Source: a virus | IMG/VR virus record: IMGVR_UViG_3300045988_087611 | Strand: one strand, 5' to 3' | Length of the DNA: 61,953 nt | In this document: piece by piece, positions 7,579-48,822 of the stretch | How positions within the stretch are numbered: position 1 is the stretch's first letter | Layout of the letters: each line of letters starts with the position of its first letter | Notes under the pieces: generated by a model | The model's input: only the letters and a program-made list of their open reading frames with translations | The model's database searches: none | What the model was told of the DNA's origin: nothing | Program-made: the position numbers and the translations under genes

Positions 7579-8436
7579 ATGGAGCCTCCGGAGCCGGAAA
7601 CGTGCCAGTTTTGTGGGAAAGTTCTCTATCACTACGGCGCTATTTTCCCAGGCCAAAAGCGCGTGTTCAGTTGGTTTTCCGAGGCCGAGCGGTGCGATTG
7701 CCAAGGTGCGCAGGAATACTGGGCCCGGGTAGAGGAAGAGAGAAGGGCCCAGGAAGCCGAGGAGAAGAAGCGCATACAGCAAGAGCTTATCCGCCGCCGG
7801 GTCGCAAAACTGCTGGCAGACAGCGGCATGGGGGGCAGATTTCAGACCCGCACCTTTGAGCGGTTCACTGTGAATGACGAAAACCGCCGGGCCTACAATG
7901 CTGCCAAGCGATATGCAGACAGCTTTTCCCTTATGATACCCCACAAAGACGATACCGGCCGCATAACACCGCCCCAAAAGGAGCGCAACGGCCTCTTCAT
8001 CAGCGGCACGAAGGGCACCGGAAAGACCCACCTAGCGGCCGCGATTGCCAATCAGCTTATCCAGGGCGGGGTTCCCGTTATCTGTATGACGATGATTGAC
8101 CTCCTCTCCCGAATCAAAGAAACCTTTGAAGGGGGAAAAGGCACTTCCGAGGCTGAAATCTTGCGGATTTACAAGGATGTTCCCCTTCTTATTATTGACG
8201 ACATTGGCACCGAACAGCCGACCGAATGGGGTCTTGCCAAAATTTACACTATCATCAATGCGAGATACGAGGGCTATATGCCCACCATCATCACCACCAA
8301 TTACTCCGGCGACGAGCTGATCCGGCGCATGACGCCGGCCACCGACGACGGGTACACAGCCGCCAAAACTATCGACCGCCTCCGGGAAATGTGCGCCGGC
8401 ATCGAAATGACCTGGGAGAGCTGGCGGCTTCGCTGA
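7579..8436 (+). CDS. DnaC/IstB-like AAA+ helicase loader
   Basis: Walker A GTKGTGKTHLA and Walker B LLIIDDIG. The start is uncertain: ORF opens at 7411, in-frame GTG at 7549, ATG at 7579. Confidence 0.75.
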   Translation: MEPPEPETCQFCGKVLYHYGAIFPGQKRVFSWFSEAERCDCQGAQEYWARVEEERRAQEAEEKKRIQQELIRRRVAKLLADSGMGGRFQTRTFERFTVNDENRRAYNAAKRYADSFSLMIPHKDDTGRITPPQKERNGLFISGTKGTGKTHLAAAIANQLIQGGVPVICMTMIDLLSRIKETFEGGKGTSEAEILRIYKDVPLLIIDDIGTEQPTEWGLAKIYTIINARYEGYMPTIITTNYSGDELIRRMTPATDDGYTAAKTIDRLREMCAGIEMTWESWRLR

Positions 8437-16273: not shown

Positions 16274-16873
16274 ATGAAGAGCACAGACAACACCGGGGCC
16301 ACCGGGTTCCTCTATGCCTGCATCAGCTCCCGGGTCATGGAGCAGGCGATCCAAAGGGGAATTGATGCCGGGGTGAAAGCGGCTATGGAGCATATCCGCA
16401 CCGAGCGGGAGAAGGAGCGGAAAAGCCGCCAGGATAGGAGGCTCCACAACACCCGCCTCCTCCTGAAGAATTACCGGCTCCTGAAGGAGCATACCAAGGG
16501 AGCCATCTTCCGTGCCAACCAGGCCAGGGAGCGAGCTGTGGACATCTTGGATGGCCTCAACGACTATGAGATGGACGATGGCCTTTACATCGAGAGCATC
16601 AAGAAAAGCCAGCAGCGCACCCTCATCATCCTGGCACACATAGACCAAATGCTGGAGCTCTACAAGGCATACTGTTATAACAGCGGGAACCCAGAAAACA
16701 TCCGCCGGTATGGCGTGGTCATGGCGACCTATATCGACGAGCCGAAAAAAAGTGCCCTCGAAATTGCGGGCACTTTTGGCATCGAAAAGCGCACCGTTTA
16801 CAAGGACATCAAAGCGGCCGCAAACCCGCTCACCGCCTTGCTTTTTGGCATCGACAGCCTGCGGATGGAATAG
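16274..16873 (+). CDS. ArpU/RinA-like late-gene transcriptional regulator
   Basis: C-terminal sigma-region-4-like HTH KKSALEIAGTFGIEKRTVYKDIK. It is the last early gene before the packaging module. Confidence 0.55.
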   Translation: MKSTDNTGATGFLYACISSRVMEQAIQRGIDAGVKAAMEHIRTEREKERKSRQDRRLHNTRLLLKNYRLLKEHTKGAIFRANQARERAVDILDGLNDYEMDDGLYIESIKKSQQRTLIILAHIDQMLELYKAYCYNSGNPENIRRYGVVMATYIDEPKKSALEIAGTFGIEKRTVYKDIKAAANPLTALLFGIDSLRME

Positions 16874-16910
16874 CAAAATAGGCCCTCCCCCAGAGGGCAC
16901 AAAGTGGGCA

Positions 16911-16939
16911 CTGACAATTCACTTCGTATGTGCTAAAAT
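16911..16939 (+). promoter_or_regulatory. Promoter upstream of the ParB-MTase and packaging genes
   Basis: CTGACA, 17-bp spacer, TAAAAT. Preceded by hairpin GCCCTC-N5-GAGGGC (16883-16899). Confidence 0.5.
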
Positions 16940-16960
16940 TGATAGCGTGGAGGATTGGAT

Positions 16961-18670
16961 ATGAGCAACGAAACCACCACACCGGCCCAGCCAAGGGCCA
17001 CCACACCGGACGGCTTTAAGGTCTGGTGCAGCTTCGACGAACTCGTGGAGCTGGACAGCTTGAAGCCAAATCCCAGAAATCCCAATAAGCACCCGGTGGC
17101 CCAGCTTGAGCTCCTGGCGAATATTATCAAGAAGGGCGGCTGGCGGGAGAAGATCACCGTCAGCCGCCGCAGCGGTTTTATCGTCAAGGGACATGCCAGG
17201 CGGGAGGCCGGGAAGATGGCCGGAGGGCAGTATGCTCCCGTCGAATGGCAGGACTACGCCACCGAGGCCGACGAGATGGCCGACCTGATTGCCGATAACC
17301 GGATCGCCGAGCTGGCGGTTCTGGATGAAGAGGCCATCACCGAGCTGCTGGCCGAGCTGGAGGCCAACACCGACGGCATAGACCCGGAAATGAGCGGCTT
17401 CACCGCCGAGCAGATCAGGGAAATGGTGGAGAAGGCGCAGAAGGGGGCAGACGAGGCAGAGCAGCAGGCAGCCCGCCTCACCCTTCAGCAGAAGTTCCTG
17501 ATCCCGCCATTCACCGTCCTGGACGCCCGTGGCGGCTTCTGGTCGGAGCGGAAGAAGGCATGGAAGGCCCTGGGCATCCGCTCCGAGATGGGCCGGGGCG
17601 CCGACGACTGCAAGACCGAGGGCGGCCTTACCTTCGCCCGGAGCTCCCAGCCGCCGGCAGTCTACCAGGCCAAGAATGACTACGAGGCCAAGGTGGGCAA
17701 GAAGATCTCCTGGGAGGAGTTTGCCAACCTGTTCCCCGAGGTCATGGCCCAGGGCGGCACCTCCATTTTTGACCCGGTGCTCTGTGAGGTAGCCTATCGG
17801 TGGTTCTGCCCACAGGGCGGCTCCATCATTGACCCCTTCGCCGGCGGGAGCGTCCGGGGCATCGTGGCAGCCCTTACCGGCCGGCGCTATACCGGCGTTG
17901 ATTTATCCGGCCGGCAAATCGAGGCTAACACCCAAAATTGGGAGGAAATCTCTCACGAAAGCGTCTTAGAGGACAGTGAGTGCCCCGTAACTCCTCCCAA
18001 CTGGATCAACGGCGACAGCAGCCACATTGAAGAGCTGGCCCCGGGAGATTATGACCTATTCTTTACCTGTCCCCCCTATGCAGACCTGGAGGTTTATAGC
18101 GACAAGCCGGAAGACCTCTCCAACAAGGATTATCCGGAGTTCCTGGAGCTCTACCGGGGCATTATCCGAAAGACGGCGGCCATGCTGAAGCCAAACCGCT
18201 TCGCCTGCATCGTTGTGGGGGATGTGCGGGACAGCCGGGGCTTCTACCACAACTTCGTGAGTGACACCATCACGGCCTTCCGGGACGCCGGCATGGACTT
18301 CTACAATGAAGCCATTCTGATTATGCCTTTTGGCAGCCTGCCCATCCGGGCCGGCAAGCAGTTTGCCAGTGGCCGGAAGCTGGGCAAGGCCCACCAGAAT
18401 GTCCTTGTGTTCTGCAACGGAGACCCGGCCCAAAGTGGAGCCTTCGACCTGGAGACCCCGGAGGGGTACGCCGGGGACATTGGCCGCTATCTGGCCGCCG
18501 GCGCCGGCAAGCTGGGTCAGGAACACCAAAAGGTGCTGGTCTTCTCCAAAGGCGATCCCGCCCAGGCATCGGCCGATATTGGAGTGCCTGAGGACACGGA
18601 GGCCCTGGACAGCACCGACAACGCCCGGTTGCTGAAGGAGCTCCTGGGCAGCGACTATCCAGACGAATAA
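16961..18670 (+). CDS. ParB-like nuclease domain fused to a DNA methyltransferase
   Basis: N-terminus LKPNPRNPNKHP...GHARREA (ParB N-domain). AdoMet motif IIDPFAGGSVRG. Catalytic FTCPPY. ATG at 16961 after GGAGGA. Confidence 0.8.
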   Translation: MSNETTTPAQPRATTPDGFKVWCSFDELVELDSLKPNPRNPNKHPVAQLELLANIIKKGGWREKITVSRRSGFIVKGHARREAGKMAGGQYAPVEWQDYATEADEMADLIADNRIAELAVLDEEAITELLAELEANTDGIDPEMSGFTAEQIREMVEKAQKGADEAEQQAARLTLQQKFLIPPFTVLDARGGFWSERKKAWKALGIRSEMGRGADDCKTEGGLTFARSSQPPAVYQAKNDYEAKVGKKISWEEFANLFPEVMAQGGTSIFDPVLCEVAYRWFCPQGGSIIDPFAGGSVRGIVAALTGRRYTGVDLSGRQIEANTQNWEEISHESVLEDSECPVTPPNWINGDSSHIEELAPGDYDLFFTCPPYADLEVYSDKPEDLSNKDYPEFLELYRGIIRKTAAMLKPNRFACIVVGDVRDSRGFYHNFVSDTITAFRDAGMDFYNEAILIMPFGSLPIRAGKQFASGRKLGKAHQNVLVFCNGDPAQSGAFDLETPEGYAGDIGRYLAAGAGKLGQEHQKVLVFSKGDPAQASADIGVPEDTEALDSTDNARLLKELLGSDYPDE

Positions 18671-18681: not shown

Positions 18682-18704
18682 GCGCGGGGGCACAGCCCCC
18701 GCGC
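18682..18704 (+). terminator. GC hairpin after the methyltransferase gene
   Basis: GCGCGGGGG-CACAG-CCCCCGCGC, then ATTCTT. Confidence 0.5.
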
Positions 18705-18732
18705 ATTCTTATGCAGGAAGGAGGAGACGGCA

Positions 18733-19362
18733 TTGAGTAGGCCGAAGAAGGCCGCCCCGGCCTATAACGGGGAGATGTGGGAGCAGATGATCGGAGAGAG
18801 CACCCAGCAGTACGAGCGGTTCTGCCTTTATCGGGATATGCGTTATAAGCCCCCTGACAAGGAGAAAGACCCTCCGAAGCTCGACCTCACCAGCCGGCGA
18901 AGCATCCGGGGCGTGGCGGAGCGCCTGGGCATGGCCCGCCAGACGCTGGAGAGCTGGAGCTCTGCCTTCCACTGGCGGGAGCGGTGCGAAGCATACGACG
19001 CCTATATCCTCGGGCGGCTGCGTGAGAAGAACGAAGCCGACATCCTGAAGATGCGGGAAACCCATGCTTCCTTGGCAAATCAGATGTTGAAGAAGGCGAC
19101 CAGGCGCCTTCTGACCCTCAAAGACGAGGAGATCACCGCCGCCGACATCGTGCGCCTGGTCGATGTAGGTGTGAAAATAGAGCGGTTGAGCCGTGGAGAG
19201 AGTACCGAGCGCCAGGAGATCACCGGGGAGGCCAAAGTCCACCACAGCGGCACCCTGGACGTGACAGCGGCAGGCGGTCTCGACCTCTCCGGGCTTTCCG
19301 ACGAGGAGCTGGGCCAGCTTGAGCAGCTATTGGGCAAGCTACATCCAGAGCCCAGCGTTTGA
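18733..19362 (+). CDS. terS: Terminase small subunit
   Basis: TTG start after AGGAAGGAGGAG. HTH-like SIRGVAERLGMARQTLESWSSAFHW. It lies directly upstream of terL. Confidence 0.65.
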   Translation: MSRPKKAAPAYNGEMWEQMIGESTQQYERFCLYRDMRYKPPDKEKDPPKLDLTSRRSIRGVAERLGMARQTLESWSSAFHWRERCEAYDAYILGRLREKNEADILKMRETHASLANQMLKKATRRLLTLKDEEITAADIVRLVDVGVKIERLSRGESTERQEITGEAKVHHSGTLDVTAAGGLDLSGLSDEELGQLEQLLGKLHPEPSV

Positions 19363-20818
19363 CCCGGAGGCGCTGCAAGCCGCCATCCGTAAAGAGAAGG
19401 CGGAGCGCAGCTTATCCGATTTCATCCGCCAGGCGTGGCCGGTGATCGAACCAGGCACAGAGTACATCGAGAACTGGCACACTGACCTTATCAGCGAATA
19501 CCTCCAGGCTGTGAACCTGGGACAGATCCACCGCCTGATCGTCAACATCCCGCCCCGGCACATGAAGTCCATCCACGTCACCGTCTGCTATCCTGTGTGG
19601 ACGTGGCTGCGGGCGCCGGCCAAGCGGTTCATCAAGGTTTCTTACAGCGACGCCCTCTCCCGGAAGCACAATATCCTTTCCCGTGATATTATCCGCTCCC
19701 CCTGGTATCAAGGGAACTGGAGCGATAGATTTAGCCTGAAGGACGATGTGAACCGGCAGAACGAGTTCCGCAACGACCACCAGGGCATGATGATGTCTAC
19801 CTCCGTCGGCGGCTCTCTGACCGGCGAAGGCGGCGACGTTATCATCATCGACGACCCGCAGAACCCCCTCATGGCGAACAGCGAAACGGAGCGACAGAAC
19901 AGCATCAACTTCTTTAAGAACACGCTCCAGACCCGTCTAAATGACCCCAAGAACGGCGCCATTATTATCATCATGCAGCGCCTTCACGAAAGCGATCTGA
20001 CCGGCTACGTCCTGTCGGAAGACCTGGGGTACACCCACCTGTGCCTCCCGGCGGAAGCCGAGGAGCGCAGCACCATCATCTATCCCATCAGCAAGAAGAA
20101 GGTCGTCCGGGAGCCGGGCGACCTTCTGAACCCCGCCCGCTTCGATAAGGAAGTCCTGGACAGCCTGAAGCGGAGCATGGGCTCGGCGCAGTACGCCGGC
20201 CAGTTCCAGCAGACTCCGGCTCCGGCGGAGGGTATCATATTCAAGCGTGAATGGATGAACAACACCTTCACGGCAAAGAGCCTCCCACACCAGAGCATAA
20301 TAATCCAATCCTGGGATATGGCCTTCACCAAAAGCGAAGGCAGCGCCAAGGTGGCCGGCTTCGTCCTCTCCCGGGCCGGGAGCAATATCTATATCCGTGA
20401 CCTGGAGAACGACAAAATGACCTTCACGGAGAGCGTTGCGGCCGTCCGCCGCCTCTCTGGCAAGTGGCCGAAGGCCCGCGCCAAGGTGGTGGAGAACAAG
20501 GCCAATGGGCCTGCCATCGTTGACCTGCTGAAGAAGGAAATCCCCGGCATGGTGGAGTTCAACCCCAAGGGCAGCAAGGAGGAGCGGGCCATATCCGTCA
20601 CTCCCTATTTTGAGGCCGGAAACATCTGGTTCCCAGACCCCAAGGATGCCCCCTGGGTGAACGACCTGATCCGTGACCTTCTGATTTTCCCCAAGGGCAC
20701 CTTCAAGGACACCACAGACGCGCTGGTGCAGGGTATCCTCTACCTGATGGATAAGCCCACCACCTCCGCCCCGCCCAAGGACATCACCACCACCCGGAAG
20801 AGCTACTGGATGAAATAA
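19319..20818 (+). CDS. terL: Terminase large subunit
   Basis: 499-aa ORF. ATPase region LIVNIPPRHMKS, Walker B-like VIIIDDP, C-terminal nuclease-type region. Start (TTG 19319) uncertain. Confidence 0.8.
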   Translation: MSSYWASYIQSPAFDPEALQAAIRKEKAERSLSDFIRQAWPVIEPGTEYIENWHTDLISEYLQAVNLGQIHRLIVNIPPRHMKSIHVTVCYPVWTWLRAPAKRFIKVSYSDALSRKHNILSRDIIRSPWYQGNWSDRFSLKDDVNRQNEFRNDHQGMMMSTSVGGSLTGEGGDVIIIDDPQNPLMANSETERQNSINFFKNTLQTRLNDPKNGAIIIIMQRLHESDLTGYVLSEDLGYTHLCLPAEAEERSTIIYPISKKKVVREPGDLLNPARFDKEVLDSLKRSMGSAQYAGQFQQTPAPAEGIIFKREWMNNTFTAKSLPHQSIIIQSWDMAFTKSEGSAKVAGFVLSRAGSNIYIRDLENDKMTFTESVAAVRRLSGKWPKARAKVVENKANGPAIVDLLKKEIPGMVEFNPKGSKEERAISVTPYFEAGNIWFPDPKDAPWVNDLIRDLLIFPKGTFKDTTDALVQGILYLMDKPTTSAPPKDITTTRKSYWMK

Positions 20819-21025
20819 TCGCCCAAAATAGACACCAGAATCTTGTAAAATTATGTATAATTTTATTGGGCCCTGTGGGGAGGTGACGAGATTTCGGTGG
20901 AACCCCCAAAACGGCAGCGCCTCCACCGTCAATGCGGCGGCCGTGGAATAGAGATGGCTGGCTGGTGAAATATGCCCAATCAGCGGCCGGCCCTCCCTGG
21001 ACTTACGATAGGAGGAACCGCACCA

Positions 21026-21187
21026 ATGAAAAACGACAGATACATCATTTCTATTGCTGCCGACGAAGACCCTGCCATCTTCTCCAAGAAGGCCAAAGAT
21101 GGCGCCACCGTGACCATGATCACCGCCCGGACGTTTGAGGAGGCCACCGCCCTGTATGAGCAGGCGGCCGCCGAGAACGCGGAGTAA
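21026..21187 (+). CDS. 53-aa hypothetical protein (paralog of 21588..21749)
   Basis: ATG at 21026 after TAGGAGGAA. ISIAADEDP...DGATVTMITARTFEEA parallels the second copy. Confidence 0.45.
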   Translation: MKNDRYIISIAADEDPAIFSKKAKDGATVTMITARTFEEATALYEQAAAENAE

Positions 21188-21194
21188 AAGCGAA

Positions 21195-21220
21195 GGGGGC
21201 CCCGAATTGGGCCCCCGTTT
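21195..21220 (+). terminator. Terminator-like hairpin
   Basis: GGGGGCCC-N6-GGGCCCCC followed by GTTT. Confidence 0.5.
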
Positions 21221-21237
21221 CTCCTTGAAATTCGATG

Positions 21238-21266
21238 TTGACTTGTAGCGGGCTACATGGTAGAAT
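21238..21266 (+). promoter_or_regulatory. Promoter of the RHH/antirepressor module
   Basis: TTGACT (21238-43), 17-bp spacer, TAGAAT (21261-66). Confidence 0.7.
21244..21257. promoter_or_regulatory. Palindromic operator 1 TGTAGCGGGCTACA (fills the promoter spacer)
   Basis: Arms TGTAGC/GCTACA are perfect inverted repeats. Confidence 0.65.
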
Positions 21267-21280
21267 TGTAGCAGGCTACA
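21267..21280. promoter_or_regulatory. Palindromic operator 2 TGTAGCAGGCTACA (immediately after the -10)
   Basis: Same arms as operator 1, 23 bp centre to centre. Confidence 0.65.
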
Positions 21281-21288
21281 AGGAGGCG

Positions 21289-21468
21289 ATGCACTTGGCC
21301 GACAAGAGCAGAGCCGAGTATTTCCGCGAAAGACGGAAGACCATGAAGTCCTTTAATGTGATGCTCAAACGGGAAAAGGTCGAGGCCCTGGAGGCCAAAC
21401 TTAAAGCCGAAGGCAGAACAAAGGCAGAGTGGTTGGACGAAAAGGTGGATGAAGAGCTCGGCAAATAG
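21289..21468 (+). CDS. Ribbon-helix-helix repressor (Arc/Mnt/CopG-like)
   Basis: ATG at 21289 after AGGAGG. KSFNVMLKREKVEALEAKLKAEGRTKAEWLDEKV is a strand-helix-helix. It sits just downstream of a promoter flanked by twin palindromes. Confidence 0.6.
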   Translation: MHLADKSRAEYFRERRKTMKSFNVMLKREKVEALEAKLKAEGRTKAEWLDEKVDEELGK

Positions 21469-21587
21469 GAAGGACGCCCACCGTCCCTGACAAAGACCTG
21501 GTGAGCGCCCTCCATAAACAACAACCCCGAAGGATTGATAAATCCATTCTATCAGACCTCCGGGGGAATTTCAAGGAGGAAAAATAG

Positions 21588-21749: not shown

Positions 21750-21973
21750 CCGCGAGAGAAACTATCGAGGCCGAGCTGAAGCAGATGGTCTTTGACCTTC
21801 TCCATGAGCAGGATATGGACGATCTGAGGGACGGCGAGAAGAAAGCCCTGCCCCATATCTCCGCCGCCGAGCAGGCCCACATCCTGGACAGCACCCAGTC
21901 CACCGCCTGGAGGAATGAGATCGAAAAGGCGGCCACGTTCAGCCGCCTTCTGAAAGGAGATGCAGAGCCGTGA
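21746..21973 (+). CDS. Hypothetical acidic protein
   Basis: 75-aa ORF, ATGA-coupled. Confidence 0.4.
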   Translation: MTARETIEAELKQMVFDLLHEQDMDDLRDGEKKALPHISAAEQAHILDSTQSTAWRNEIEKAATFSRLLKGDAEP

Positions 21974-22728
21974 ATGGGCTCCAGGTATTCAGCTATAATG
22001 ACCACAGTGTGAGAACTGTTAAGCAGGATGGCCAGCCCTGGTGGGTGCTGGCCGATGTGTGCGATGTGCTGGAGCTGAAAAACCCCGCAAGAGTGGCCGC
22101 ACGTTTGGACGAGGACGAAAAGAATACCCTAACTTTTGTGAAGGGTATTCCTGGCCCCGGAAATCCGACTATGACCATCATCAACGAACCGGGGCTATAT
22201 TCGGTGATCCTGCGGAGCAACAAGCCGGAGGCGAAAGCCTTTAAGCGGTGGATTACCCATGAAGTTCTCCCCACCATTCGCGCCACGGGGGCCTATGGAG
22301 CCCCGCAGGCAGCCCCCGCAATAACTGATGCCTTGGAGCGCATGACGGGTGTTGTGGAGGCGCTGGCGAGCCGCATCGAGGCGCTGGAACATCAGGCGCA
22401 GGAAGTCCCCCGGGCAGAATTGATTGCCCCCCCTGACCTCAGCATTCCGCGAACTACCCGACGCCACTGGATGAGGAAATTCAACGAGAAGCTGGAAACG
22501 CTGGAATATAACTTCAATCTCTCAAAGCCGGCCATTCTTCGCCGCCTCTACGATATGGTAGAAAAGAAGTTTGACACCGTGCTGGACGAAGAGCGGTTCC
22601 GATATATTGAGAAAACCGGCCAGGAAGAGTGCTCTGTACTCGAAATTATCTATCGAAATGAGCAGTATAGAGCCTATTTCCAGCACATTATCGACCAAAA
22701 GCTGGGGCCGGAATATTGGGATTGGTGA
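21970..22728 (+). CDS. Bro-N domain antirepressor-like protein
   Basis: LQVFSYNDHSVRTVKQDGQPWWVLADVCDVLEL...INEPGLYSVILRSNKPEAKAFKRWITHEVLPTIR is a canonical BRO N-terminal domain. Confidence 0.8.
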   Translation: MNGLQVFSYNDHSVRTVKQDGQPWWVLADVCDVLELKNPARVAARLDEDEKNTLTFVKGIPGPGNPTMTIINEPGLYSVILRSNKPEAKAFKRWITHEVLPTIRATGAYGAPQAAPAITDALERMTGVVEALASRIEALEHQAQEVPRAELIAPPDLSIPRTTRRHWMRKFNEKLETLEYNFNLSKPAILRRLYDMVEKKFDTVLDEERFRYIEKTGQEECSVLEIIYRNEQYRAYFQHIIDQKLGPEYWDW

Positions 22729-22732
22729 ATGC

Positions 22733-22767
22733 GAAAGGGCTGGGGGCCATAAGCTCCCAGCCCTTTC
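22733..22767 (+). terminator. Terminator after the antirepressor gene
   Basis: GAAAGGGCTGGG-loop-CCCAGCCCTTTC. Confidence 0.6.
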
Positions 22768-22782
22768 TGTCCGGAAACGCGC

Positions 22783-22822
22783 CTGTAATTCTGGTGTAAT
22801 TGGAGTGTAACAAGGGTGTAAT
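22783..22822 (+). repeat. Four (G)TGTAA(T/C) direct repeats in exact 11-bp phase
   Basis: Copies start at 22783, 22794, 22805 and 22816. They are followed by the inverted pair TGCGTTAC (22822-29) / GTAACGCA (22840-47). Confidence 0.8.
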
Positions 22823-23051
22823 GCGTTACCTTTTCGCACGTAACGCACATGAAATCTGGTGTAGCATTTCTGTGTAATTTGGTAATCGCTCGACGAAATT
22901 TCATTCGGATTTTTTGAAGGAGATTATTTGTTCACACAGGCAGAATGATATGGGTATTTGAAGACAGAGTTGTGTGCAAAAAAGTGTGGAAATGTTGATA
23001 AAATCCCGCAATTCTTTTCTGAAATAGAAACTTTTATGAAAGGGATTAGTG

Positions 23052-23089
23052 TGTAACGCACTTGTAACGCACCAGTAATCCGAAGTTAC
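23052..23089 (+). repeat. TGTAACGCAC x2 plus GTAAT and GTTAC, 11-bp phase
   Basis: Copies at 23052-61 and 23063-72, GTAAT at 23075, inverted GTTAC at 23085. Confidence 0.8.
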
Positions 23090-23093
23090 GCGC

Positions 23094-23165
23094 CTACCTA
23101 ACCGTACCTAACCTAACCTAACCTAACCTACCATACCATACCTGACCATACCTAACCTACCAGAC
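23094..23165 (+). repeat. Degenerate pentanucleotide tract (CCTAA/CCATA)n, ~14 units
   Basis: cctac ctaac cgtac ctaac ctaac ctaac ctaac ctacc atacc atacc tgacc atacc taacc tacc. Confidence 0.85.
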
Positions 23166-23265
23166 CCAGGGGAAGTTCCTCTTTGCCCACTGAAAAGCCG
23201 TGGGCGGTAGCTGGGTGTGGCCTGGGCATTTTCGATACCGTGAACAACAGAACACCGCCAGTCCG

Positions 23266-23292
23266 ACGGCCGCCGCTTGGTGGCCGTTTTCT
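23266..23292 (+). terminator. Terminator-like hairpin with a U-tract 13 nt before the portal RBS
   Basis: ACGGCC-N10-GGCCGT followed by TTTTCTT. Confidence 0.45.
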
Positions 23293-23318
23293 TATACGCT
23301 GGAGAAAGGAGGAAAAGC

Positions 23319-24728
23319 GTGGCTACTTTGCGTGAAATCGGCCGGATAGGACAAAACCGCTGGGGCGGTGTCTTCCGGGAAGAGTTCTTGACGGAGCTCC
23401 AGGGCCGCCGGGGAGTCCAGGCGTTCCGAGAGATGTCGGAGAATGACGACATCGTGGGCGCTATCCTATTCGCCATTGAGATGCTGATTCGGCAGGCCGT
23501 GTGGGAAGTGCAGCCAGCCGGGGACACGGCCAAGGACAAGGAGGCCGCCGAGTTTGTGGAGAGCTGCATGGATGATATGGCCGACACCTGGACGGACACC
23601 ATCGCGGAGATCCTGTCCTTCCTGACCTATGGCTGGAGCGCCCACGAAATCGTCTACAAGCGCCGGGTCGGCCGGAGCAACGACCCCCGGCTCCAGAGCA
23701 AGTATGGGGACGGCCTAATTGGCTGGCAGAAGCTGCCCATCCGGGCCCAGGAAACCCTCTATGAGTGGCGCTATGACGCCCGGGACAACCTCATGGGCCT
23801 GGTGCAGATGCCACCCCCGGACTATGGCCTGATTGAGATACCTGTGGAAAAGCTGCTGCTCTTCCGCACGAAGAGCCGGAAGGGCAACCCGGAGGGGCGC
23901 AGCATCCTCCGCAACGCCTACCGGGATTGGTACTTCAAGCGGCGCATCCAGGAAATAGAGGGCATCGGCATTGAGCGCGACCTCGCCGGCCTCCCGGTGA
24001 TCACCGCGCCGGAGGGGTTGGACATCTGGGACACAGAAGACCCGGACATGGTGACGGCCAGAGCCCAGGCGGAGCGGATTGTGCAGAACGTCCGGCGGGA
24101 CAGCTTGGAGGGGCTGGTAAAGCCCTCAGGCTGGACATTGGAGCTGCTGTCCACCGGCGGCCGCCGGCAGTTTGACACCAACAGCATCATCGACCGCTAC
24201 GACAGCCGCATTGCTATGACGGTGCTGGCGGACTTCGTGCTGCTGGGGCACCAGAACGTGGGCAGTTTTGCCCTGTCCAGCGACAAGACCAAGCTCTTCG
24301 GCACGGCTATCGGGGCTTACCTGGATATTATCTGTGAGGTCTTCAACAACCAGGCAATCCCCCGGCTCATTGACCTGAACGGCGAGCACTTCCGGGGTAT
24401 CACCGATTATCCGGAAATGACCCACGGCGACGTGGAGAGCCCCAACCTCGCCACCCTGGGCACCTTCCTGCGGGAAGTCACCGGCGCCGGCATCCTAATC
24501 CCGGATGAAGGCGTGGAGGACTATGTACGCCAGGCCGCCAACCTCCCGGAGCGCATGGAAGACTACGGCACACAGCTCAACCAGCAGAACCGGGAGCGGC
24601 AACAGCCGCCCAAAGGCCAATCTATGAAGCCAGCCGCCGGCCAGGAGGAAGACCAGGATGGAGAACTCCCGGACGATGAAAAAGACGCCGTAGAGGCCGC
24701 CAAACGGCGCCTCGGGAGGTATGATTGA
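23319..24728 (+). CDS. Portal protein (Mu gp29/DUF935-like)
   Basis: GTG at 23319 after AAAGGAGG. About 470 aa, located upstream of the MuF gene. Acidic C-terminal tail. Confidence 0.75.
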   Translation: MATLREIGRIGQNRWGGVFREEFLTELQGRRGVQAFREMSENDDIVGAILFAIEMLIRQAVWEVQPAGDTAKDKEAAEFVESCMDDMADTWTDTIAEILSFLTYGWSAHEIVYKRRVGRSNDPRLQSKYGDGLIGWQKLPIRAQETLYEWRYDARDNLMGLVQMPPPDYGLIEIPVEKLLLFRTKSRKGNPEGRSILRNAYRDWYFKRRIQEIEGIGIERDLAGLPVITAPEGLDIWDTEDPDMVTARAQAERIVQNVRRDSLEGLVKPSGWTLELLSTGGRRQFDTNSIIDRYDSRIAMTVLADFVLLGHQNVGSFALSSDKTKLFGTAIGAYLDIICEVFNNQAIPRLIDLNGEHFRGITDYPEMTHGDVESPNLATLGTFLREVTGAGILIPDEGVEDYVRQAANLPERMEDYGTQLNQQNRERQQPPKGQSMKPAAGQEEDQDGELPDDEKDAVEAAKRRLGRYD

Positions 24729-27700
24729 TGCGGAAACTCGCTGTGATGAAACGGGCCCGAGTGCGTCCCATCCTAAAGGCCAAGAAGAGCCAGGGCGCCC
24801 AGGATGTCCTTGACCGCCTCAACGCCTTCCTCAACGCTGCGGAGCCCGAGCCGGTCTACTGGCTTACCAGGCTGTGGAACGACCAGCAGCAGGCCGTGAC
24901 CTACAAGGAGCTGCGGGAGGCTATCCAGCAGGGCTATATCGACGAGAAGACCCTGGCGGCCTGGCAGGCCGACTACGCCAACTTCGTCAATGAGCACCTG
25001 AAGGGCATCTGGCAGGATGCGGCCAAAGCCGCAAACGCCGCCCTGGAGGCCCAGCACCCCGATTTCTTCTATGACCCTATGGGAGAAGGCATCCAGAATT
25101 GGACGGCCACCCACGGCGCCGAATGGGTAACGAATATCTCGGACGACCAGCGGGAGGCAATCACCAGCATGATCGACCGGGCTACGACCGGGGCATGGAC
25201 AGGCGACGAGCTAGCCCGTGCCATCCGCCCCCTAATCGGGCTCACTAAGCCCCAGGCTCTCGCCAACCTGAACTACTACGAGCACCTGAAGGCGACCCTG
25301 CTGGCGAATAACCCAACCATGAAGGAGGCCACGGCCGCCAAAGCCGCCCGGGACGCAGCGGCCAAGTACGCCGCCAAGCAGCACCGGCAGCGGGCCTATA
25401 CCATCGCCACCACAGAACTCGCCTACGCCTACAACAAGGGCGCCGACGATGGAATCATCCAGGCCCAGCAGCAGGGCTTCATCGGCAAGGTGAAGCGCGT
25501 CTGGAGCACCGCCTACGACGACGGTGTGTGTGAGATATGCTCGGCCCTGGAAGGCCAGGAAATCGACATGGATGGGGAGTTTGACTTCAAGGGAAAGAGC
25601 CTATATGCCGGCCAGAAGAAGACACCGCCGGCACACCCGCGCTGTCGGTGCGCCGTGGAATATCGGGAGGTGGAGCCACCAGAGGTAGAGCAGCAAGAGC
25701 CGGAACAGCCCCCTACCACCTGGGGGGATCCCCCGGAGCAAGACCTCCCGGAGCCGCCGTCTCCTGTGGCTGCCCCAAGTATTCCCATCCCGTCCGGCAT
25801 GACCTATCAGGGCAAGCCAAATCTGGGCGGCACCGGGGAGATGCACCTATACCGGGACGGCGCCGGCCAGGAGTGGCTATTCAAGCCGGCCCAGACCAAG
25901 AGCGGCTCCCCTGAAGCCTTCCGGGCCTATGTCCAGGAGGCCGGCTATAAGGTGCAGTACATCGTTGACCCAGATACGGCCGTTCCTGTCGGCGTCGGGG
26001 AGCTGGGTGGCAAGTTCGGCGCCTTCCAGAAGCGGATCACCACCATCGGCAGCGCCACGGACTATAAGGCATGGCAGCACAGCGGCGGCCACCTCCCAGA
26101 CGGCTCCGCGCAGCAGTTCCAGCGGGAGCATGTCACTGACTGGCTCCTGGGGAACTACGACAGCCACGGCGGGAACTTCGTCACCGACAGCTCCGGCCGT
26201 CTGGTGGGCATCGACAAGGAGCAGTCCTTCAAGTACATCGGCAAGGACGGCGCCCAGGCCATGAGCTACGCCTTCCACCCCAACAAGAGCTACGGGGAGA
26301 CGGAGCCCATCTATAACACCATCTATCGCCGGTTCGCCAAAGGTGAGCTTGACCTTGACCTCCAAGACACCCTTGCTTATATCAAGCGCGTGGAGGCCAT
26401 TCCTGACAGCGAATATCGGGAGATATTCAGGGACTATGCCGAGGCCCTGCATGGCAAGGGCAAAGAGGCCGAGGCTCTGCTGGACGCCATTGTGGAGCGG
26501 AAGGACAACCTTCGGGAGACCTACCGGGCCTTTTACTCCGACCTCCTCACCGAGCGCACCGGCCGCAAGCAGATATTTACCTGGGCCGACGAAGTGGCCC
26601 AGCAAGCCAAGCAGCCCCTCGCGGCTGTCACCCATTCCGCTGATGCTCTGAAGAAGATGAATGTGGCGGAGCTGAAGCAGCTCGCCAAGCAGAAGGGAAT
26701 CCCGTACTACAACAAGTTCAACAAGAAGGAGCTGATCGAGGCCATCTCCGACCCGGTGAAGGCCGTGGAGATCAGCGCCAAGACCAAGGCCAAGCTGCTG
26801 AACCTGGAGGCCACTCGCCCCGAGCGCCTCGGCCGGACAACGGAGAAACCGCCCCGGCCACCCCGCACCGGCGCAGTTGACGCCGGCGACCTGTTTCAAG
26901 ACTTCGGCCAGATCCCGCCGCAGCGCATCGGCGTCGCGGTATCCAGCGACGAGGGCATGGTGGAGGGCCTGAATCTGACCGCCCGGAAAGTCAACCTGGA
27001 CGGTCAGGATGTCTATGAAATCACCGGGAAGCTGGCCGAAAGCACCTGGTCGCAGACCTGGGACACCCTGAAGAAGCAAAGCAAGGTAAAGCAGCTAACC
27101 TTCGAGCAGGCAGACGATACCCTCGCCCTGCTGGCCTCCCGGCCAATCAATATGCACGGGGTAGAAATCAAGGCCCGCACCATGGAGGATTCCGGCGGCA
27201 CCTTCCAGCTCTATGTTCACAACGGCTCCCAGCAGTACAACGCCTGGAAGGGCTTCTTCCGGCTTCGGGTGCCGGCTACCGGGAACGGAGCAGCCGACGC
27301 CAAAGCGGCCAAAAATCTCCTTGACCGGGCCGGCCTTTCCGGCCTGGCCTCTACTCCGACAGCGGAGGCCGAGGCGATATTCAAGAAGAGCCGGCTCCTC
27401 TGGCAACATGCTCCCGGGCGGATGAAAGAGCTGAAGGGGTTGCAAGGCGGCGCTTTGGAGAGTACACTAAACACAATCCTTCAGGAAGAGGGCATCGACC
27501 CGGGCAGAGCAGAGCACATGGTCATGCGGAAGGTGTTCGACGGCTATCAGACCCTTGTTGAGGAGGGCATCAGCGCCGAGTACCAGAAAGCCGGCCTGAA
27601 ATATCTATGGGCCGGCGTGCGAAGGCCGGAGGCCCTTGTCGGAATTCTGAATGGGAAGGGTTTCATGTCTACCAACACCCGCTGCCTGTATGGAATGGAC

Positions 27701-28147
27701 TTCACCGGGGCAAGCCCGGGGGATGATATGAGAACCGGCGGAAGCGACAGCGTCTTCACCCGGATAGGCGTCAAAATGAAGAGCGGCGATCAGCCCCGCT
27801 TCGATGACAGCTATCTCGGTGGTTATTACCGGGTCATCATCGACCCGAAGGAGCTGGAGCGCACCGACTGGTACGCATACACCTTCGACAACTTCGGCAC
27901 CACGGATGAAGGGGAGCTCCTTGGCCGGAAAAGGGCCCTGGAATTCATTGATTATTTGGCTACCAGTTGGAAGGCAAGCAACGAGGTCATGTTCCGGCAC
28001 GGCATACCGAAGGAGCACTTCACCGGGATCATGTGCCCCAATGAGGCGAGGCGGGCCGACCTCCTAAAACAGTTGAAGGACGCGGGCATCACCGAGGTAA
28101 ACGGGGTTCCGATTGAAGATTTCGTGAAAGTGGGGAATGAGATATGA
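24728..28147 (+). CDS. Giant MuF/SPP1-gp7-family head protein fused to a HipA/PI3-4-kinase-like domain, a HeH (Rho-N/SAP-like) motif and an unassigned ~400-aa C-terminal domain
   Basis: MuF core ...VKRVWSTAYDDGVCEICSALEG...PPAHPRCRCAV. Pro-rich linker. Kinase-like LGGTGEMHLY / EWLFKP / LGNYDSHGGNFV / LVGIDKEQSF. HeH MNVAELKQLAKQKGIPYYNKFNKKELIEAI. Confidence 0.8.
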   Translation: MRKLAVMKRARVRPILKAKKSQGAQDVLDRLNAFLNAAEPEPVYWLTRLWNDQQQAVTYKELREAIQQGYIDEKTLAAWQADYANFVNEHLKGIWQDAAKAANAALEAQHPDFFYDPMGEGIQNWTATHGAEWVTNISDDQREAITSMIDRATTGAWTGDELARAIRPLIGLTKPQALANLNYYEHLKATLLANNPTMKEATAAKAARDAAAKYAAKQHRQRAYTIATTELAYAYNKGADDGIIQAQQQGFIGKVKRVWSTAYDDGVCEICSALEGQEIDMDGEFDFKGKSLYAGQKKTPPAHPRCRCAVEYREVEPPEVEQQEPEQPPTTWGDPPEQDLPEPPSPVAAPSIPIPSGMTYQGKPNLGGTGEMHLYRDGAGQEWLFKPAQTKSGSPEAFRAYVQEAGYKVQYIVDPDTAVPVGVGELGGKFGAFQKRITTIGSATDYKAWQHSGGHLPDGSAQQFQREHVTDWLLGNYDSHGGNFVTDSSGRLVGIDKEQSFKYIGKDGAQAMSYAFHPNKSYGETEPIYNTIYRRFAKGELDLDLQDTLAYIKRVEAIPDSEYREIFRDYAEALHGKGKEAEALLDAIVERKDNLRETYRAFYSDLLTERTGRKQIFTWADEVAQQAKQPLAAVTHSADALKKMNVAELKQLAKQKGIPYYNKFNKKELIEAISDPVKAVEISAKTKAKLLNLEATRPERLGRTTEKPPRPPRTGAVDAGDLFQDFGQIPPQRIGVAVSSDEGMVEGLNLTARKVNLDGQDVYEITGKLAESTWSQTWDTLKKQSKVKQLTFEQADDTLALLASRPINMHGVEIKARTMEDSGGTFQLYVHNGSQQYNAWKGFFRLRVPATGNGAADAKAAKNLLDRAGLSGLASTPTAEAEAIFKKSRLLWQHAPGRMKELKGLQGGALESTLNTILQEEGIDPGRAEHMVMRKVFDGYQTLVEEGISAEYQKAGLKYLWAGVRRPEALVGILNGKGFMSTNTRCLYGMDFTGASPGDDMRTGGSDSVFTRIGVKMKSGDQPRFDDSYLGGYYRVIIDPKELERTDWYAYTFDNFGTTDEGELLGRKRALEFIDYLATSWKASNEVMFRHGIPKEHFTGIMCPNEARRADLLKQLKDAGITEVNGVPIEDFVKVGNEI

Positions 28148-29029: not shown

Positions 29030-29140
29030 GCGTGGTATCTTCCAAAACGGAAAGAACCACCCACATGAGATAAGCCGGTGGGCAGCGGACAACCGCTGTC
29101 CACCTGTTTATATACACGCCCAAGAAAGGAGGAAAGCAGC

Positions 29141-30340
29141 GTGCCCACAAAACTGAAGGGCCTGGAAGTGACGAAGGTAGACTTTGTTGATGCCGGGGAC
29201 AACAAGCGGGCCGATGTCGTTCTGTTCAAGCGAAAGGACGGAGAGGCCCAGGAGCCCACCCACCAGGAGGAGCCCCAGGGGGTGGTGAAGCGCCTGCTCA
29301 CCAGGATTGCCAAGGCCGTCGGCCTTACCGATGCCGAAGTGGACGAAGCGGTGACCGCCATCCAGAAAGATGCCGTCACCTTTGACGAGAAGGTGGCACA
29401 GAGGCAGCGCCGGAAGACAGCGGATGAAATCTGGGATTTCTGCTGGATGCTCCAGGATAGCCTTTGCTCTATCTTCTGGGACGAGGCCCTCACCGACACC
29501 GAGAAGCAATCCAAAATGAATGAGAGCCTCACCGAGTTTACCACGGCAACCCAGGGAGCTATCCCCAAATGGGCTGGAGGTGTCCCCAGCGTAATCGCCA
29601 AGTCCGCCATGCCCGAACTTACCCCAGAGCGCCTGGCGTTTGCCAAGCAGACCCGCGACCGCCTCAACGACATGATCGCCAAGGCGGAAGACCCAGAGCC
29701 GGCCAATGAGCCGGAGCCCACTAATCCGAAATCCGAGAAAGGAGAACCTGAAGACATGAAGATTGACAAGAGCAAGCTGACCGCCGAGGAGCTGGCCGCC
29801 CTCGATGCTATCGAGAAGAAGGCCGGCATTCCCGACGAGCCCCCCGCCGCCCAGCCCACCGGGGAGCCCGCGCCCACCACAAAGGCCGCCCCCGCCGCCG
29901 AGCCCCAGGAGGGCGACGAGGACATCTACAAGGGCCTGCATCCCGCTGTGAAGGCCGAGCTGGAGCGGCTGCGCAAGGCCGCCGATGCCGCCGAGGAGCG
30001 GGAGCTCCAGGAGGTTGCCAAGAAGTATGAGATCATCGGCAAGAAGGCCGAGGAGCTGGTGCCCACACTGAAGAGCCTGAAGGCCGCCGGCGGAGACGCC
30101 TACAACCAGATGATCGCCGTGCTGGACGCCAGCGTGGCTGCCGTGGAGAAGTCCGGCCTCTTTTCCGAGGTAGGTAAGTCCGGCGGTGCTGGTACTACCA
30201 GCGGCGGTGCCTGGGCCGAGATCGAGAAGCACGCCGAGGCTATTCAGAAGGCCGCACCCACCATGACCTGGGCCCAGGCCGTGGATAAGGCGTGTGAGCA
30301 GCACCCCGACCTCGTGCATGAGTACGAGAGCGGACGATAA
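29141..30340 (+). CDS. Scaffolding protein
   Basis: GTG at 29141 after AAAGGAGGAAA. Acidic, helical and Ala/Glu-rich. Located between the protease-like gene and the capsid genes. Confidence 0.55.
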   Translation: MPTKLKGLEVTKVDFVDAGDNKRADVVLFKRKDGEAQEPTHQEEPQGVVKRLLTRIAKAVGLTDAEVDEAVTAIQKDAVTFDEKVAQRQRRKTADEIWDFCWMLQDSLCSIFWDEALTDTEKQSKMNESLTEFTTATQGAIPKWAGGVPSVIAKSAMPELTPERLAFAKQTRDRLNDMIAKAEDPEPANEPEPTNPKSEKGEPEDMKIDKSKLTAEELAALDAIEKKAGIPDEPPAAQPTGEPAPTTKAAPAAEPQEGDEDIYKGLHPAVKAELERLRKAADAAEERELQEVAKKYEIIGKKAEELVPTLKSLKAAGGDAYNQMIAVLDASVAAVEKSGLFSEVGKSGGAGTTSGGAWAEIEKHAEAIQKAAPTMTWAQAVDKACEQHPDLVHEYESGR

Positions 30341-48794: not shown

Positions 48795-48822
48795 TCCTCC
48801 GCAGAGCTATCCAGTCCCCATC

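What the first reader, a model, noticed from the sequence alone, without database searches (positions are those of the whole stretch)
22770..23090. Iteron-like arrays of GTAAY repeats in 11-bp phase flanking an AT-rich core
In a ~550-bp non-coding gap upstream of the portal gene, (G)TGTAA(T/C) occurs four times at exactly 11-bp spacing (22783-22822). An inverted TGCGTTAC/GTAACGCA pair and more GTGTAA/GGTAAT copies follow (22858-22886). Next comes a ~150-bp AT-rich stretch that is unusual for this GC-rich genome. Then come TGTAACGCAC x2, GTAAT and an inverted GTTAC, again in 11-bp phase (23052-23089). Helical-phase direct repeats bracketing an AT-rich segment are the architecture of replication origins, and also of pac/terminase-small-subunit or partition sites. 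No protein-coding explanation fits: the only ORFs are antisense and low-complexity.
Basis: seen in the sequence. Interest (0 to 1): 0.65.

Follow-up and report, generated by a model that had tools for sequence, protein, structure and literature searches.

The report
Repeat-flanked control region before phage portal
The phased GTAAY repeats are real and under selection, but they most likely mark binding sites for an unknown protein around a promoter in front of a gut phage's portal gene, not a replication origin or packaging site.

Summary
TGTAAY occurs 4 times at exactly 11 bp, there is an inverted TGCGTTAC/GTAACGCA pair, the core is the most AT-rich 150 bp of the genome (33% GC), and a second 11-bp-phased array follows. 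Phased triplets occur only here (0 in 100 shuffles). Among close relatives the cores stay fixed while the spacers vary (p=2e-4).

The window is a complete circular 61.85-kb temperate myovirus-like phage of Oscillospiraceae. The gap lies in a moron-filled insertion between terL and portal.

The AT core holds an invariant block with an extended -10 (TGATAAAAT).

Distant relatives carry copies of their own late-promoter sites, or a whole late promoter, at this junction.

Best reading (about 0.45): a promoter flanked by operator-like arrays that controls transcription into the head genes.

An origin (SPP1 oriR-like), a pac site and an ncRNA gene remain possible. Each fails at least one defining test.

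Nothing here shows protein binding, promoter activity or transcription directly.

The parts
22733..22767 (+). Terminator-like hairpin closing the Bro-N (anti-repressor-like) gene 21970-22728
   Evidence: 15-nt arms, 93% complementary (I2). L083 differs from the window at five positions in and next to the loop.
22784..22822 (+). Left array: four TGTAAY cores at exactly 11-bp spacing
   Evidence: (D3). Zero of 39 core positions vary within clade A, against 7 of 27 spacer positions.
22822..22847 (.). Inverted repeat TGCGTTAC-N10-GTAACGCA, a dyad operator-like site
   Evidence: I9. The arms are conserved in L089-L092, and substitutions fall only in the spacer.
22859..22886 (+). Degenerate extra copies (GTGTAGC, GTGTAAT, GGTAAT)
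   Evidence: These copies vary among close relatives, so they are under less constraint.
22891..23045 (.). AT-rich core, the most AT-rich 150 bp of the genome
   Evidence: It is poorly conserved apart from the block below.
22985..23004 (+). Invariant block GTGTGGAAATGTTGATAAAAT. It contains an extended -10 (TGATAAAAT, 22996-23004). It can also be read as a 1-mismatch DnaA-box-like 9-mer (TGTTGATAA, 22993-23001).
   Evidence: Zero of 20 positions vary in clade A, and AAATGTTGA is invariant in all three clades. Regex hit. DnaA-box scan. No -35 hexamer, and not reported by the consensus scan.
23051..23095 (+). Right array: GTGTAACGCAC, TGTAACGCAC, AGTAATCCGA and GTTACGCGCC at 11/11/10 bp
   Evidence: It is the best conserved stretch across clades apart from the short GAACA block and the portal RBS (28% variable positions against 77-86% for the left array and core). 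It is nearly identical in L110, whose gap is otherwise only 58% identical.
23096..23165 (+). ACCNN pentamer array (about 13 units). It is C-rich and G-poor (29 C, 3 G) and predicted unstructured as RNA.
   Evidence: The unit number differs by 5-nt steps among near-identical genomes. Distant relatives carry CCTTAAA-type arrays at the same place.
23201..23254 (+). Three TGGGY sites at 11-bp spacing, then CATTTTC, then the invariant TGAACAACAGAACA. This looks like a relic or variant of the family's late-promoter upstream region.
   Evidence: It resembles GGGCAC-N5-GGGCAC at the late promoter 16893-16939. L110 has GGGCAC/GGGCAT/GGGCAA in the same order as the late promoters of L038, L044 and L111. 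L122 has a full promoter between the same flanking blocks.
23265..23296 (+). Intrinsic-terminator-like hairpin plus a T-run, about 10 nt before the portal RBS
   Evidence: Eleven pairs are kept across clades, with only one-sided changes. It is deleted in L093 and shortened in L240. The same design precedes terS and the gene starting at 29142.
23306..23321 (+). Shine-Dalgarno AAGGAGG and the portal GTG start (23319)
   Evidence: called genes.

Best explanation
The GTAAY arrays are two clusters of binding sites for a sequence-specific DNA-binding protein that has not been identified and is probably phage-encoded. The sites lie on one face of the helix (11-bp phase) and sandwich a promoter in the AT-rich core. 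That promoter has an extended -10, TGATAAAAT, at 22996-23004, with an inferred start near 23011. The left array then sits at about -230 to -110 and the right array at about +40 to +85.

Cooperative binding, probably with looping over roughly 270 bp, would switch rightward transcription on or off. That transcription runs through a leader into the portal and head genes. The leader holds the ACCNN array, a relic late-promoter site and a terminator hairpin.

The region would act as a re-initiation or checkpoint module for structural-gene transcription. It lies downstream of a roughly 2.5-kb cluster of autonomous morons and their terminators, inserted between terL and portal.

Shown: clustering and phasing of the motif, purifying selection on the cores, the invariant -10-like block, the hairpins, and the family context.

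Inferred: protein binding, promoter activity, looping, and the regulatory outcome.
For: 1. The phased arrays are unique in the complete genome and far beyond chance.

2. Cores are fixed while spacers vary among close relatives: 1/70 variable positions against 10/42, Fisher p=2e-4.

3. The only invariant block of the AT core reads TGATAAAAT. This is the same extended -10 as the late promoters of the L113/L014/L025 relatives.

4. AT-rich islands mark promoters in this phage. The second most AT-rich window is the cI/cro promoter region.

5. In most relatives terL abuts portal, with gaps of about 5-50 nt. The gap here therefore sits inside an insertion that carries its own promoters and terminators.

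6. Relatives place late-transcription signals at this junction. L112, L002 and L122 have a full copy of the family's late promoter. The L113, L014 and L015 group has a roughly 22/25-nt copy of its own late-promoter upstream site. The window and L110 have GGGCA-type sites like their lineage's late promoter.

7. There is published precedent. Late activators of Gram-positive phages bind short direct repeats next to the late promoter (PMC3753634).
Against: No -35 hexamer is present, and the consensus promoter scan found nothing in the gap.

The -10 reading weakens in clade B (TGATAATTT) and in L110 (TGAAAGTTT). The same block can also be read as a DnaA-box-like 9-mer.

No cognate protein is identified. 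The RHH moron gene is missing from other carriers of the gap. The Bro-N gene does not co-vary with the arrays. The cI/cro operators are TTTCC-N5-GGAAA and the RHH operators are TGTAGCnnGCTACA, so neither matches GTAAY.

A terminator sits between the proposed promoter and portal, so expression needs read-through or antitermination, which is untested.

The ACCNN array has no assigned role. There are no transcript data.
Confidence: 0.45

Rival explanations
1. It is a secondary replication origin or fork-arrest site like SPP1 oriR. The initiator, or another origin-binding protein, binds the short iterons on both sides, and the AT-rich core melts or blocks forks.
For: Two arrays of short phased repeats flank the most AT-rich 150 bp of the genome. 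A conserved DnaA-box-like TGTTGATAA lies in the core. No other iteron-like cluster was found in the first 20 kb, including the initiator gene. SPP1 keeps oriR together with three morons, bracketed by transcription signals, inside its head-gene cluster (PMC6316719).
Against: In SPP1 the same repeats also occur in the initiator gene. Here GTAAY/GTAACGCAC is absent from 6-9 kb. The gap lies about 15 kb from the DnaD/O-like initiator and DnaC-like loader. Eleven-bp units are shorter than typical initiator iterons (my own knowledge). The junction holds transcription signals in relatives. One 1-mismatch DnaA box is expected by chance: 11 were found in the window against 7.4 expected.
Confidence: 0.15
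2. It is the headful packaging (pac) site. The TerS ring binds the left and right arrays, as at pacL and pacR, and TerL cuts in the core.
For: The layout of repeat, about 150-bp core, repeat, about 310 bp in all, resembles SPP1 pacL-pacC-pacR. One site per helical turn would suit HTH domains around a TerS ring (my own knowledge). The motif is unique in the genome. The terminase is a headful type (Terminase_6C, Mu-like portal). The genome assembled as a circle with a 99-nt overlap.
Against: The site lies about 3.4 kb past terS, beyond terL and at least five ORFs, whereas the SPP1 pac site overlaps the terS promoter and 5' end. The whole gap is missing in L001, L002, L112 and L094. Their TerS (56-67% identity) and TerL (87% in L001, L002 and L112) are closer to the window's than those of the array-bearing L113 group (TerS 46-49%). 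The right array co-localises with late-promoter-type sites in relatives.
Confidence: 0.1
3. It is a regulated non-coding RNA gene. The core promoter makes an RNA of about 285 nt that ends at the 23265-23296 terminator. Its functional part is the unstructured ACCNN array, acting as a protein sponge, a Rho-loading site or a ring-protein target. The GTAAY arrays merely regulate it.
For: A promoter-like block and a terminator bracket 23011-23296. The array is C-rich, G-poor and predicted single-stranded. ACC is kept every 5 nt while the two spacer bases vary. Similar CCTTAAA arrays lie on the sense strand just upstream of structural-type genes in unrelated viral contigs L243, L245, L265 and L267.
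Against: No Rfam family matches. The fold is no more stable than shuffles (z -0.74). The internal hairpins are not kept by compensatory changes. Unit number is free to vary between 9 and 14. In L113-type phages the array has no promoter of its own and lies in the terL-portal transcript. L093 lacks the terminator.
Confidence: 0.12
4. It is a recombination-type nucleoprotein site, like an attP or a Cox/Apl-style site. The integrase arm-binding domain or the excisionase-like protein binds GTAAC repeats both at attP and here.
For: The candidate attP next to int has four CGTAACAGAA-type repeats in two 11-bp-spaced pairs. It is the second-highest GTAAY cluster in the genome. A 69-aa ICEBs1-Xis-like protein is encoded at 573-782 (NCBIfam E 6.7e-11, below the cutoff). 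The arm-core-arm layout resembles attP. P2 Cox and 186 Apl bind phased direct repeats at both attP and a promoter (my own knowledge).
Against: Only the GTAAC pentamer is shared, and the flanking bases differ. The gap is about 36 kb from int. No second recombinase was found among the proteins scanned.
Confidence: 0.06

Closest known systems
Ltr-dependent late promoters of Gram-positive phages (RinA, ArpU, LtrC; PMC3753634)
   Same: Short direct repeats next to a promoter are bound by a phage HTH activator. In this phage, GGGCAC-N5-GGGCAC lies immediately downstream of an HTH gene (16274-16873) and upstream of an extended -10 promoter that reads into the ParB-methyltransferase, terS and terL genes. 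Related sites recur in the gap at 23201-23228.
   Different: The GTAAY arrays have a different motif. There are about 12 sites in two clusters on both sides of the promoter, about 6 kb from the regulator gene, and they are followed by a terminator.
SPP1 oriR segment (PMC6316719)
   Same: Direct repeats plus an AT-rich element sit together with morons inside the head-gene cluster of a phage with an SPP1-like terS-terL-portal-MuF order. The segment is bracketed by transcription signals.
   Different: SPP1 oriR shares its repeats with oriL inside the initiator gene. Here the repeats occur nowhere else.
SPP1 pac (pacL-pacC-pacR)
   Same: Two protein-binding regions flank a central segment of similar total size.
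   Different: SPP1 pac overlaps the terS promoter and coding start. This region is downstream of terL and is dispensable in phages with orthologous terminases.
parC of plasmid R1 (two sets of five 11-bp repeats flanking the parMR promoter; my own knowledge)
   Same: Eleven-bp direct repeats lie in two arrays on either side of a promoter core.
   Different: The downstream genes here are portal and head genes, not a partition operon. The phage integrates.
Lambda PR'-6S-tR' late control (my own knowledge)
   Same: A promoter, a leader of about 0.2-0.3 kb and an intrinsic terminator lie immediately before late structural genes. Several terminator-like hairpins lie within the late operon, which implies read-through control.
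   Different: No Q-like protein or binding element is identified. terS and terL lie upstream of this unit.

Membership tests
Iteron-type replication origin (lambda ori, SPP1 oriL/oriR, SaPI ori) | Arrays of direct repeats adjacent to an AT-rich unwinding element | tested here: met
Iteron-type replication origin (lambda ori, SPP1 oriL/oriR, SaPI ori) | Repeats lie in or beside the initiator gene, or the same repeats are duplicated there | tested here: not met
   There is no GTAAY/GTAACGCAC cluster and no iteron array at 6-9 kb or elsewhere in the first 20 kb.
Iteron-type replication origin (lambda ori, SPP1 oriL/oriR, SaPI ori) | Co-inheritance with the initiator across relatives | tested here: inconclusive
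   An IMG/VR contig has a 99% identical initiator (L305), and the exact array motifs are absent from IMG/VR. The contig may simply not reach this region.
Iteron-type replication origin (lambda ori, SPP1 oriL/oriR, SaPI ori) | Initiator binding and origin firing | not testable with these tools
   This needs EMSA or footprinting and replication mapping.
pac site (SPP1 type) | Lies in or overlaps terS and its promoter | tested here: not met
   terS is at 18733-19362. The arrays begin at 22784, after terL and at least five ORFs.
pac site (SPP1 type) | Present wherever the orthologous TerS is present | tested here: not met
   It is absent in L001, L002, L112, L111 and L094 (TerS 56-67% identity). 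A related module is present in the L113 group (TerS 46-49%).
pac site (SPP1 type) | First packaging cut maps to the site | not testable with these tools
   No read data are available.
Partition centromere (R1 parC or P1 parS type) | Repeat arrays flanking a promoter or bending site | tested here: met
Partition centromere (R1 parC or P1 parS type) | An adjacent partition operon (ParM/ParR or ParA/ParB) | tested here: not met
   The downstream gene is portal. The only ParB-like domain is fused to a methyltransferase about 4 kb upstream. No ParA or ParM was found among the ORFs scanned, which were not all ORFs.
Promoter with flanking operator arrays (looping regulators; Cox/Apl-style repeat arrays) | A promoter element between or next to phased repeats | tested here: met
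   The invariant TGATAAAAT at 22996-23004 lies between the arrays, at sequence level only.
Promoter with flanking operator arrays (looping regulators; Cox/Apl-style repeat arrays) | A cognate DNA-binding protein identified | tested here: inconclusive
   RHH, Bro-N and CI/Cro were disfavoured as binders. The Xis-like 69-aa protein and other HTH proteins remain untested.
Ltr-type late promoter region | Direct repeats immediately distal to the activator gene and upstream of the late promoter | tested here: not met
   This is met at 16893-16939 but not by the GTAAY arrays. Only the TGGGY x3 sites at 23201-23228 resemble that site.
attP | Arm-type repeats next to the integrase gene | tested here: not met
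   Int is at 59838-61055, with its own repeat pairs at 59626-59650 and 59816-59840. The gap is about 36 kb away.
Known RNA families (Rfam 15) | A covariance-model match | tested here: not met
   No match up to E=1 in 22000-24000.

The most novel reading that the evidence does not exclude
The right half of the gap may represent an undescribed, family-wide cis element in front of the portal genes of gut Clostridia phages. It consists of four 11-bp-phased sites, a C-rich short-tandem array (ACCNN here, CCTTAAA in relatives) and a hairpin. It could act at the RNA level, with the periodic ACC triplets serving as the target of an oligomeric RNA-binding protein or as a Rho-loading site that sets the terminase-to-head expression ratio or silences head genes in lysogens. 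Alternatively, together with the GTAAY arrays, it could act as an SPP1 oriR-like second origin or fork trap.
Probability: 0.15. Interest if true: 0.7.

Novelty: new variant of a known kind. Interest (0 to 1): 0.45.

Why it matters
This phage is common. Its exact portal and Bro-N proteins are indexed in more than 460 sample blocks of public assemblies. It belongs to a large family of Oscillospiraceae and Lachnospiraceae phages whose gene regulation is unstudied.

The analysis turns an isolated oddity into a testable map. That map comprises a family-wide late promoter, a moron insertion hot-spot between terL and portal, and a conserved non-coding module before portal whose sites co-vary with each lineage's late promoter.

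If the arrays prove to be operators around a structural-gene promoter, they offer a handle on how temperate gut phages time head assembly despite moron insertions. If instead they are an origin or a pac site, they would show an unusual placement. A pac site here would matter for predicting transduction.

Tried and rejected
- Rfam search of 22000-24000: no match.
- Single-sequence RNA folds of 23040-23300 on both strands were no better than shuffles, with z of -0.74 and +1.02.
- A lambda boxB-like hairpin (GCCCAC...GTGGGC, 23185-23205): its 5' arm changes without compensation in relatives.
- An RfaH ops-like GGCGGTAG (23203-23210): not conserved, reading GGCGGCAA or GGCGGTAA in relatives, and RfaH is proteobacterial.
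- CodY-box-like and rrn boxA-like readings of TTCTTTTCTGAAAT: present only in clade A.
- An ECF-sigma reading of TGTAAC/GAAAC: the spacing to any CGT-type -10 does not fit.
- A TRAP-like reading of the minus strand (UAG-N2 repeats): it is antisense to all neighbouring genes, and unit number is unconstrained.
- The RHH moron protein (21289-21468) as binder: it is absent from L089-L093 and L110, which keep the arrays.
- The Bro-N protein as binder: the arrays are identical where the Bro-N proteins are only 57-64% identical, and they persist in L087 and L088, which lack the Bro-N domain.
- A MITE or target-duplication reading of the 8-bp ACGCGCCT repeat at 22777 and 23088: such an 8-mer match is expected by chance in 600 bp.
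- Exact-motif scans of IMG/VR found nothing.
- A literature search for the array motifs returned only insect telomere papers.
- MT835491, the nearest GenBank phage, has a different terL abutting portal and no gap.
- Coincidence of site positions between clades A and C was not significant once the 11-bp periodicity is allowed for, so I make no claim from it.

Full report
**1. What the window is**

The last 99 nt of the window repeat the first 99 nt, so it is a complete circularly assembled genome of 61,854 bp.

It is a temperate, myovirus-like phage. The early genes include:
- an integrase at 59838-61055 (minus strand) and a cI-like repressor at 61052-61516 (minus strand);
- a cro-like gene and an ICEBs1-Xis-like 69-aa gene at 573-782;
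- RecT and SbcC-like genes, a DnaD/O-like initiator at 6672-7514 and a DnaC-like loader at 7411-8436.

The late genes run in this order:
- an HTH gene at 16274-16873;
- a ParB-domain methyltransferase at 16955-18670;
- terS at 18733-19362;
- terL at 19319-20818;
- small ORFs;
- a Bro-N anti-repressor-like gene at 21970-22728;
- the 590-nt gap;
- portal, starting with GTG at 23319;
- a MuF fusion at 24725-28147.

Head, tail, lysis and moron genes follow, among them a diversity-generating retroelement (DGR).

The nearest relatives by portal are MAG contigs of Flavonifractor (87%) and Dysosmobacter (78%), then other Oscillospiraceae and Lachnospiraceae. The exact portal and Bro-N proteins are indexed in more than 460 sample blocks.

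**2. The observation**

It is not chance:
- 5 of 8 GTGTAAY sites and 4 of 5 GTAACGCAC-like sites in the genome lie in the gap.
- There are 12 GTAAY/RTTAC sites in 330 bp against 0.55 expected.
- Phased TGTAAY triplets occur only here, with 0 in 100 shuffles.
- The core is the most AT-rich 150 bp of the genome.

**3. Conservation**

Near-identical copies (L081-L088) differ only by one 5-nt ACCNN unit and a few positions in and next to the first hairpin's loop. Two of them, L087 and L088, carry other cargo upstream of the same gap.

I found three diverged clades:
- Clade A: the window, L089-L092, L228 and L240.
- Clade B: L093, L235 and L196.
- Clade C: L110 and L194.

Pairwise identity across the gap falls to 55-60% between clades.

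Within clade A, 1 of 70 motif-core positions varies against 10 of 42 spacer positions (p=2e-4). That is the footprint of protein-binding sites.

Across all clades the best conserved pieces are:
- the right array together with the start of the ACC array;
- the block AAATGTTGA(T)A in the AT core;
- TGAACAACAGAACA;
- the portal RBS.

One-nt indels in the core exclude a conserved ORF. The second hairpin keeps 11 pairs through one-sided changes only. It is deleted in L093.

**4. Genomic context**

In most of about 70 relatives, terL abuts portal with gaps of about 5-50 nt. The roughly 2.5-kb terL-portal segment here is therefore an insertion.

It contains autonomous cassettes:
- a TATAAT promoter at about 20855;
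- a bidirectional hairpin at 21195-21216;
- a TTGACT-17-TAGAAT promoter overlapped by two TGTAGCnnGCTACA operators, in front of an RHH gene;
- the Bro-N gene and its terminator.

**5. The family's late promoter, and its copies at this junction**

Immediately after the HTH gene 16274-16873 lies GGGCAC-N5-GGGCAC-TGACAA-N16-TGCTAAAAT, then the ParB-methyltransferase RBS. This is the layout described for Ltr-type late activators (PMC3753634).

Relatives have the same promoter with lineage-specific repeats:
- L038, L044 and L111: GGGCAC, GGGCAY and GGGCAM at 11 bp.
- L113, L014, L015 and L025: AGCACCATACAAGCACGGTGCAAAATGTGGGCAT, followed by TGATAAAAT.

The portal-upstream region of those same phages repeats these signals:
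- The L113-group module begins with AGCATTATACAAGTACGGTGCGA, about 22 of 25 nt identical to its own late-promoter site. AGCAY cores recur there at exactly 11 bp.
- L112, L002 and L122 carry an entire late-promoter copy, with TGCTAAAAT and, in L122, TAGCGTGGA, before the portal hairpin.
- The window has TGGGCG, TGGGTG and TGGGCA at 11 bp (23201-23228).
- L110 has GGGCAC, GGGCAT and GGGCAA in the same order as the L038 promoter.

Compared with L122, the window lacks about 33 nt that hold the -10. I therefore read 23200-23255 as a relic or variant of this promoter.

The junction is thus a recurrent site of late-transcription signals.

**6. The core block**

The invariant core block contains TGATAAAAT (22996-23004). 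This is the extended -10 used by L113-type late promoters.

Against this reading, there is no -35 and the consensus scan did not report the site. The -10 is weaker in clade B and in L110. The overlapping 9-mer TGTTGATAA is also a 1-mismatch DnaA box, although 11 such sites occur in the window against 7.4 expected.

With a start near 23011, the left array lies at about -230 to -110 and the right array at about +40 to +85.

**7. Terminator-like hairpins within the late operon**

A hairpin, a T-rich TATAC-like stretch and a GAAAGGAGG module also precede terS (18682-18730) and the gene starting at 29142. The same design precedes portal in nearly all relatives that have any gap.

Late transcription from 16912 must therefore pass at least four such hairpins. 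I infer that read-through or antitermination is needed, or that these hairpins act as RNA processing or stability elements.

**8. The C-rich array**

ACCNN here, or CCTTAAA in relatives, occurs at least 4 times in the 320 nt before portal in about 25 further loci, against a background of at most 0.3. It is always on the sense strand. Unit number is polymorphic, from 9 to 14 units.

Similar arrays sit directly before structural-type ORFs in unrelated viral contigs. Its function is unexplained. I list RNA-level hypotheses, but none is tested.

**9. Weighing the explanations**

Promoter with flanking operator-like arrays controlling entry into the head genes (about 0.45). This reading fits the selection pattern, the invariant -10-like block, the AT-island logic of this genome, and the family context.

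Origin (0.15). This is architecturally attractive, and SPP1 oriR is a real precedent for an origin lying with morons among head genes. But the repeats are not shared with the initiator region.

Pac site (0.10). The location argues against it, as does its absence from phages with closer terminases.

ncRNA gene (0.12). No structure or family supports it.

att- or Xis-type site (0.06). This rests on a shared GTAAC pentamer with the attP-like repeats.

Partition (about 0.02). There is no partition operon, and the phage integrates.

**10. Limits**

No expression, binding, termini or replication data were available. The promoter calls are sequence inferences. Only three diverged clades carry the GTAAY arrays. 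The identity of the binding protein is open.

Noticed in passing
window 46383-51245: A complete diversity-generating retroelement. The target is a tail-fibre-like gene with its VR at 48662-48785. An avd-like ORF lies at 49210-49668, the TR at 49727-49850 and the reverse transcriptase at 49947-51245. All 18 TR/VR mismatches fall at TR adenines.
   Followed up: yes
window 23096-23165; L015 5880-5950, L113, L005, L011, L026, L122: A C-rich, G-poor short-tandem array lies on the sense strand before portal in many related phages (ACCNN x13 here, CCTTAAA x5-8 in distant relatives). Unit number differs among near-identical genomes. Its function is unexplained.
   Followed up: partly
L243, L245, L265, L267: Unrelated viral contigs carry CCTTAAA/CCTTATA/CCTTGAA arrays immediately upstream of start codons of structural-looking genes, in the same orientation. 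This may be a general leader feature.
   Followed up: no
window 16893-16945: The family-wide late promoter: GGGCAC-N5-GGGCAC-TGACAA-N16-TGCTAAAAT. It lies right after a SpoIIID-like HTH gene (16274-16873) and before the ParB-methyltransferase, terS and terL genes. It is conserved, with lineage-specific repeats, in many relatives.
   Followed up: partly
window 18682-18730, 23265-23318, 29077-29144: A recurrent module of GC hairpin, T-rich TATAC-like stretch and GAAAGGAGG RBS precedes terS, portal and the gene starting at 29142. It suggests antitermination or mRNA processing and stabilisation in the late operon.
   Followed up: partly
window 59626-59650 and 59816-59840: Four CGTAACAGAA-type repeats in two 11-bp-spaced pairs flank a hairpin next to the integrase stop codon. 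These are candidate attP arm sites, and they share the GTAAC pentamer with the arrays in the gap.
   Followed up: partly
window 573-782: A 69-aa HTH protein resembles the ICEBs1 excisionase (NCBIfam E 6.7e-11, below the curated cutoff). It is a candidate RDF and a possible binder of phased repeats.
   Followed up: no
window 20840-21470: A moron cassette. A promoter TTGACT-17-TAGAAT is overlapped by two TGTAGCnnGCTACA palindromes in front of a small RHH (CopG/RepB-regulator-like) gene, preceded by a bidirectional hairpin at 21195-21216.
   Followed up: partly
L093 about 3960-3975; L240: Natural deletion variants. L093 lacks the whole portal-proximal hairpin (41 nt), and L240 lacks 12 nt of its 5' arm. 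The hairpin is therefore dispensable, or these phages are defective.
   Followed up: no
window 1-99 and 61855-61953: An exact 99-nt terminal overlap shows that the window is a circularly closed assembly of the whole phage genome.
   Followed up: yes
L305 (IMGVR_UViG_3300045988_099569): An IMG/VR contig encodes a 99% identical replication initiator, yet it did not appear among the 80 portal relatives kept (151 were found). This suggests module exchange between phages.
   Followed up: no
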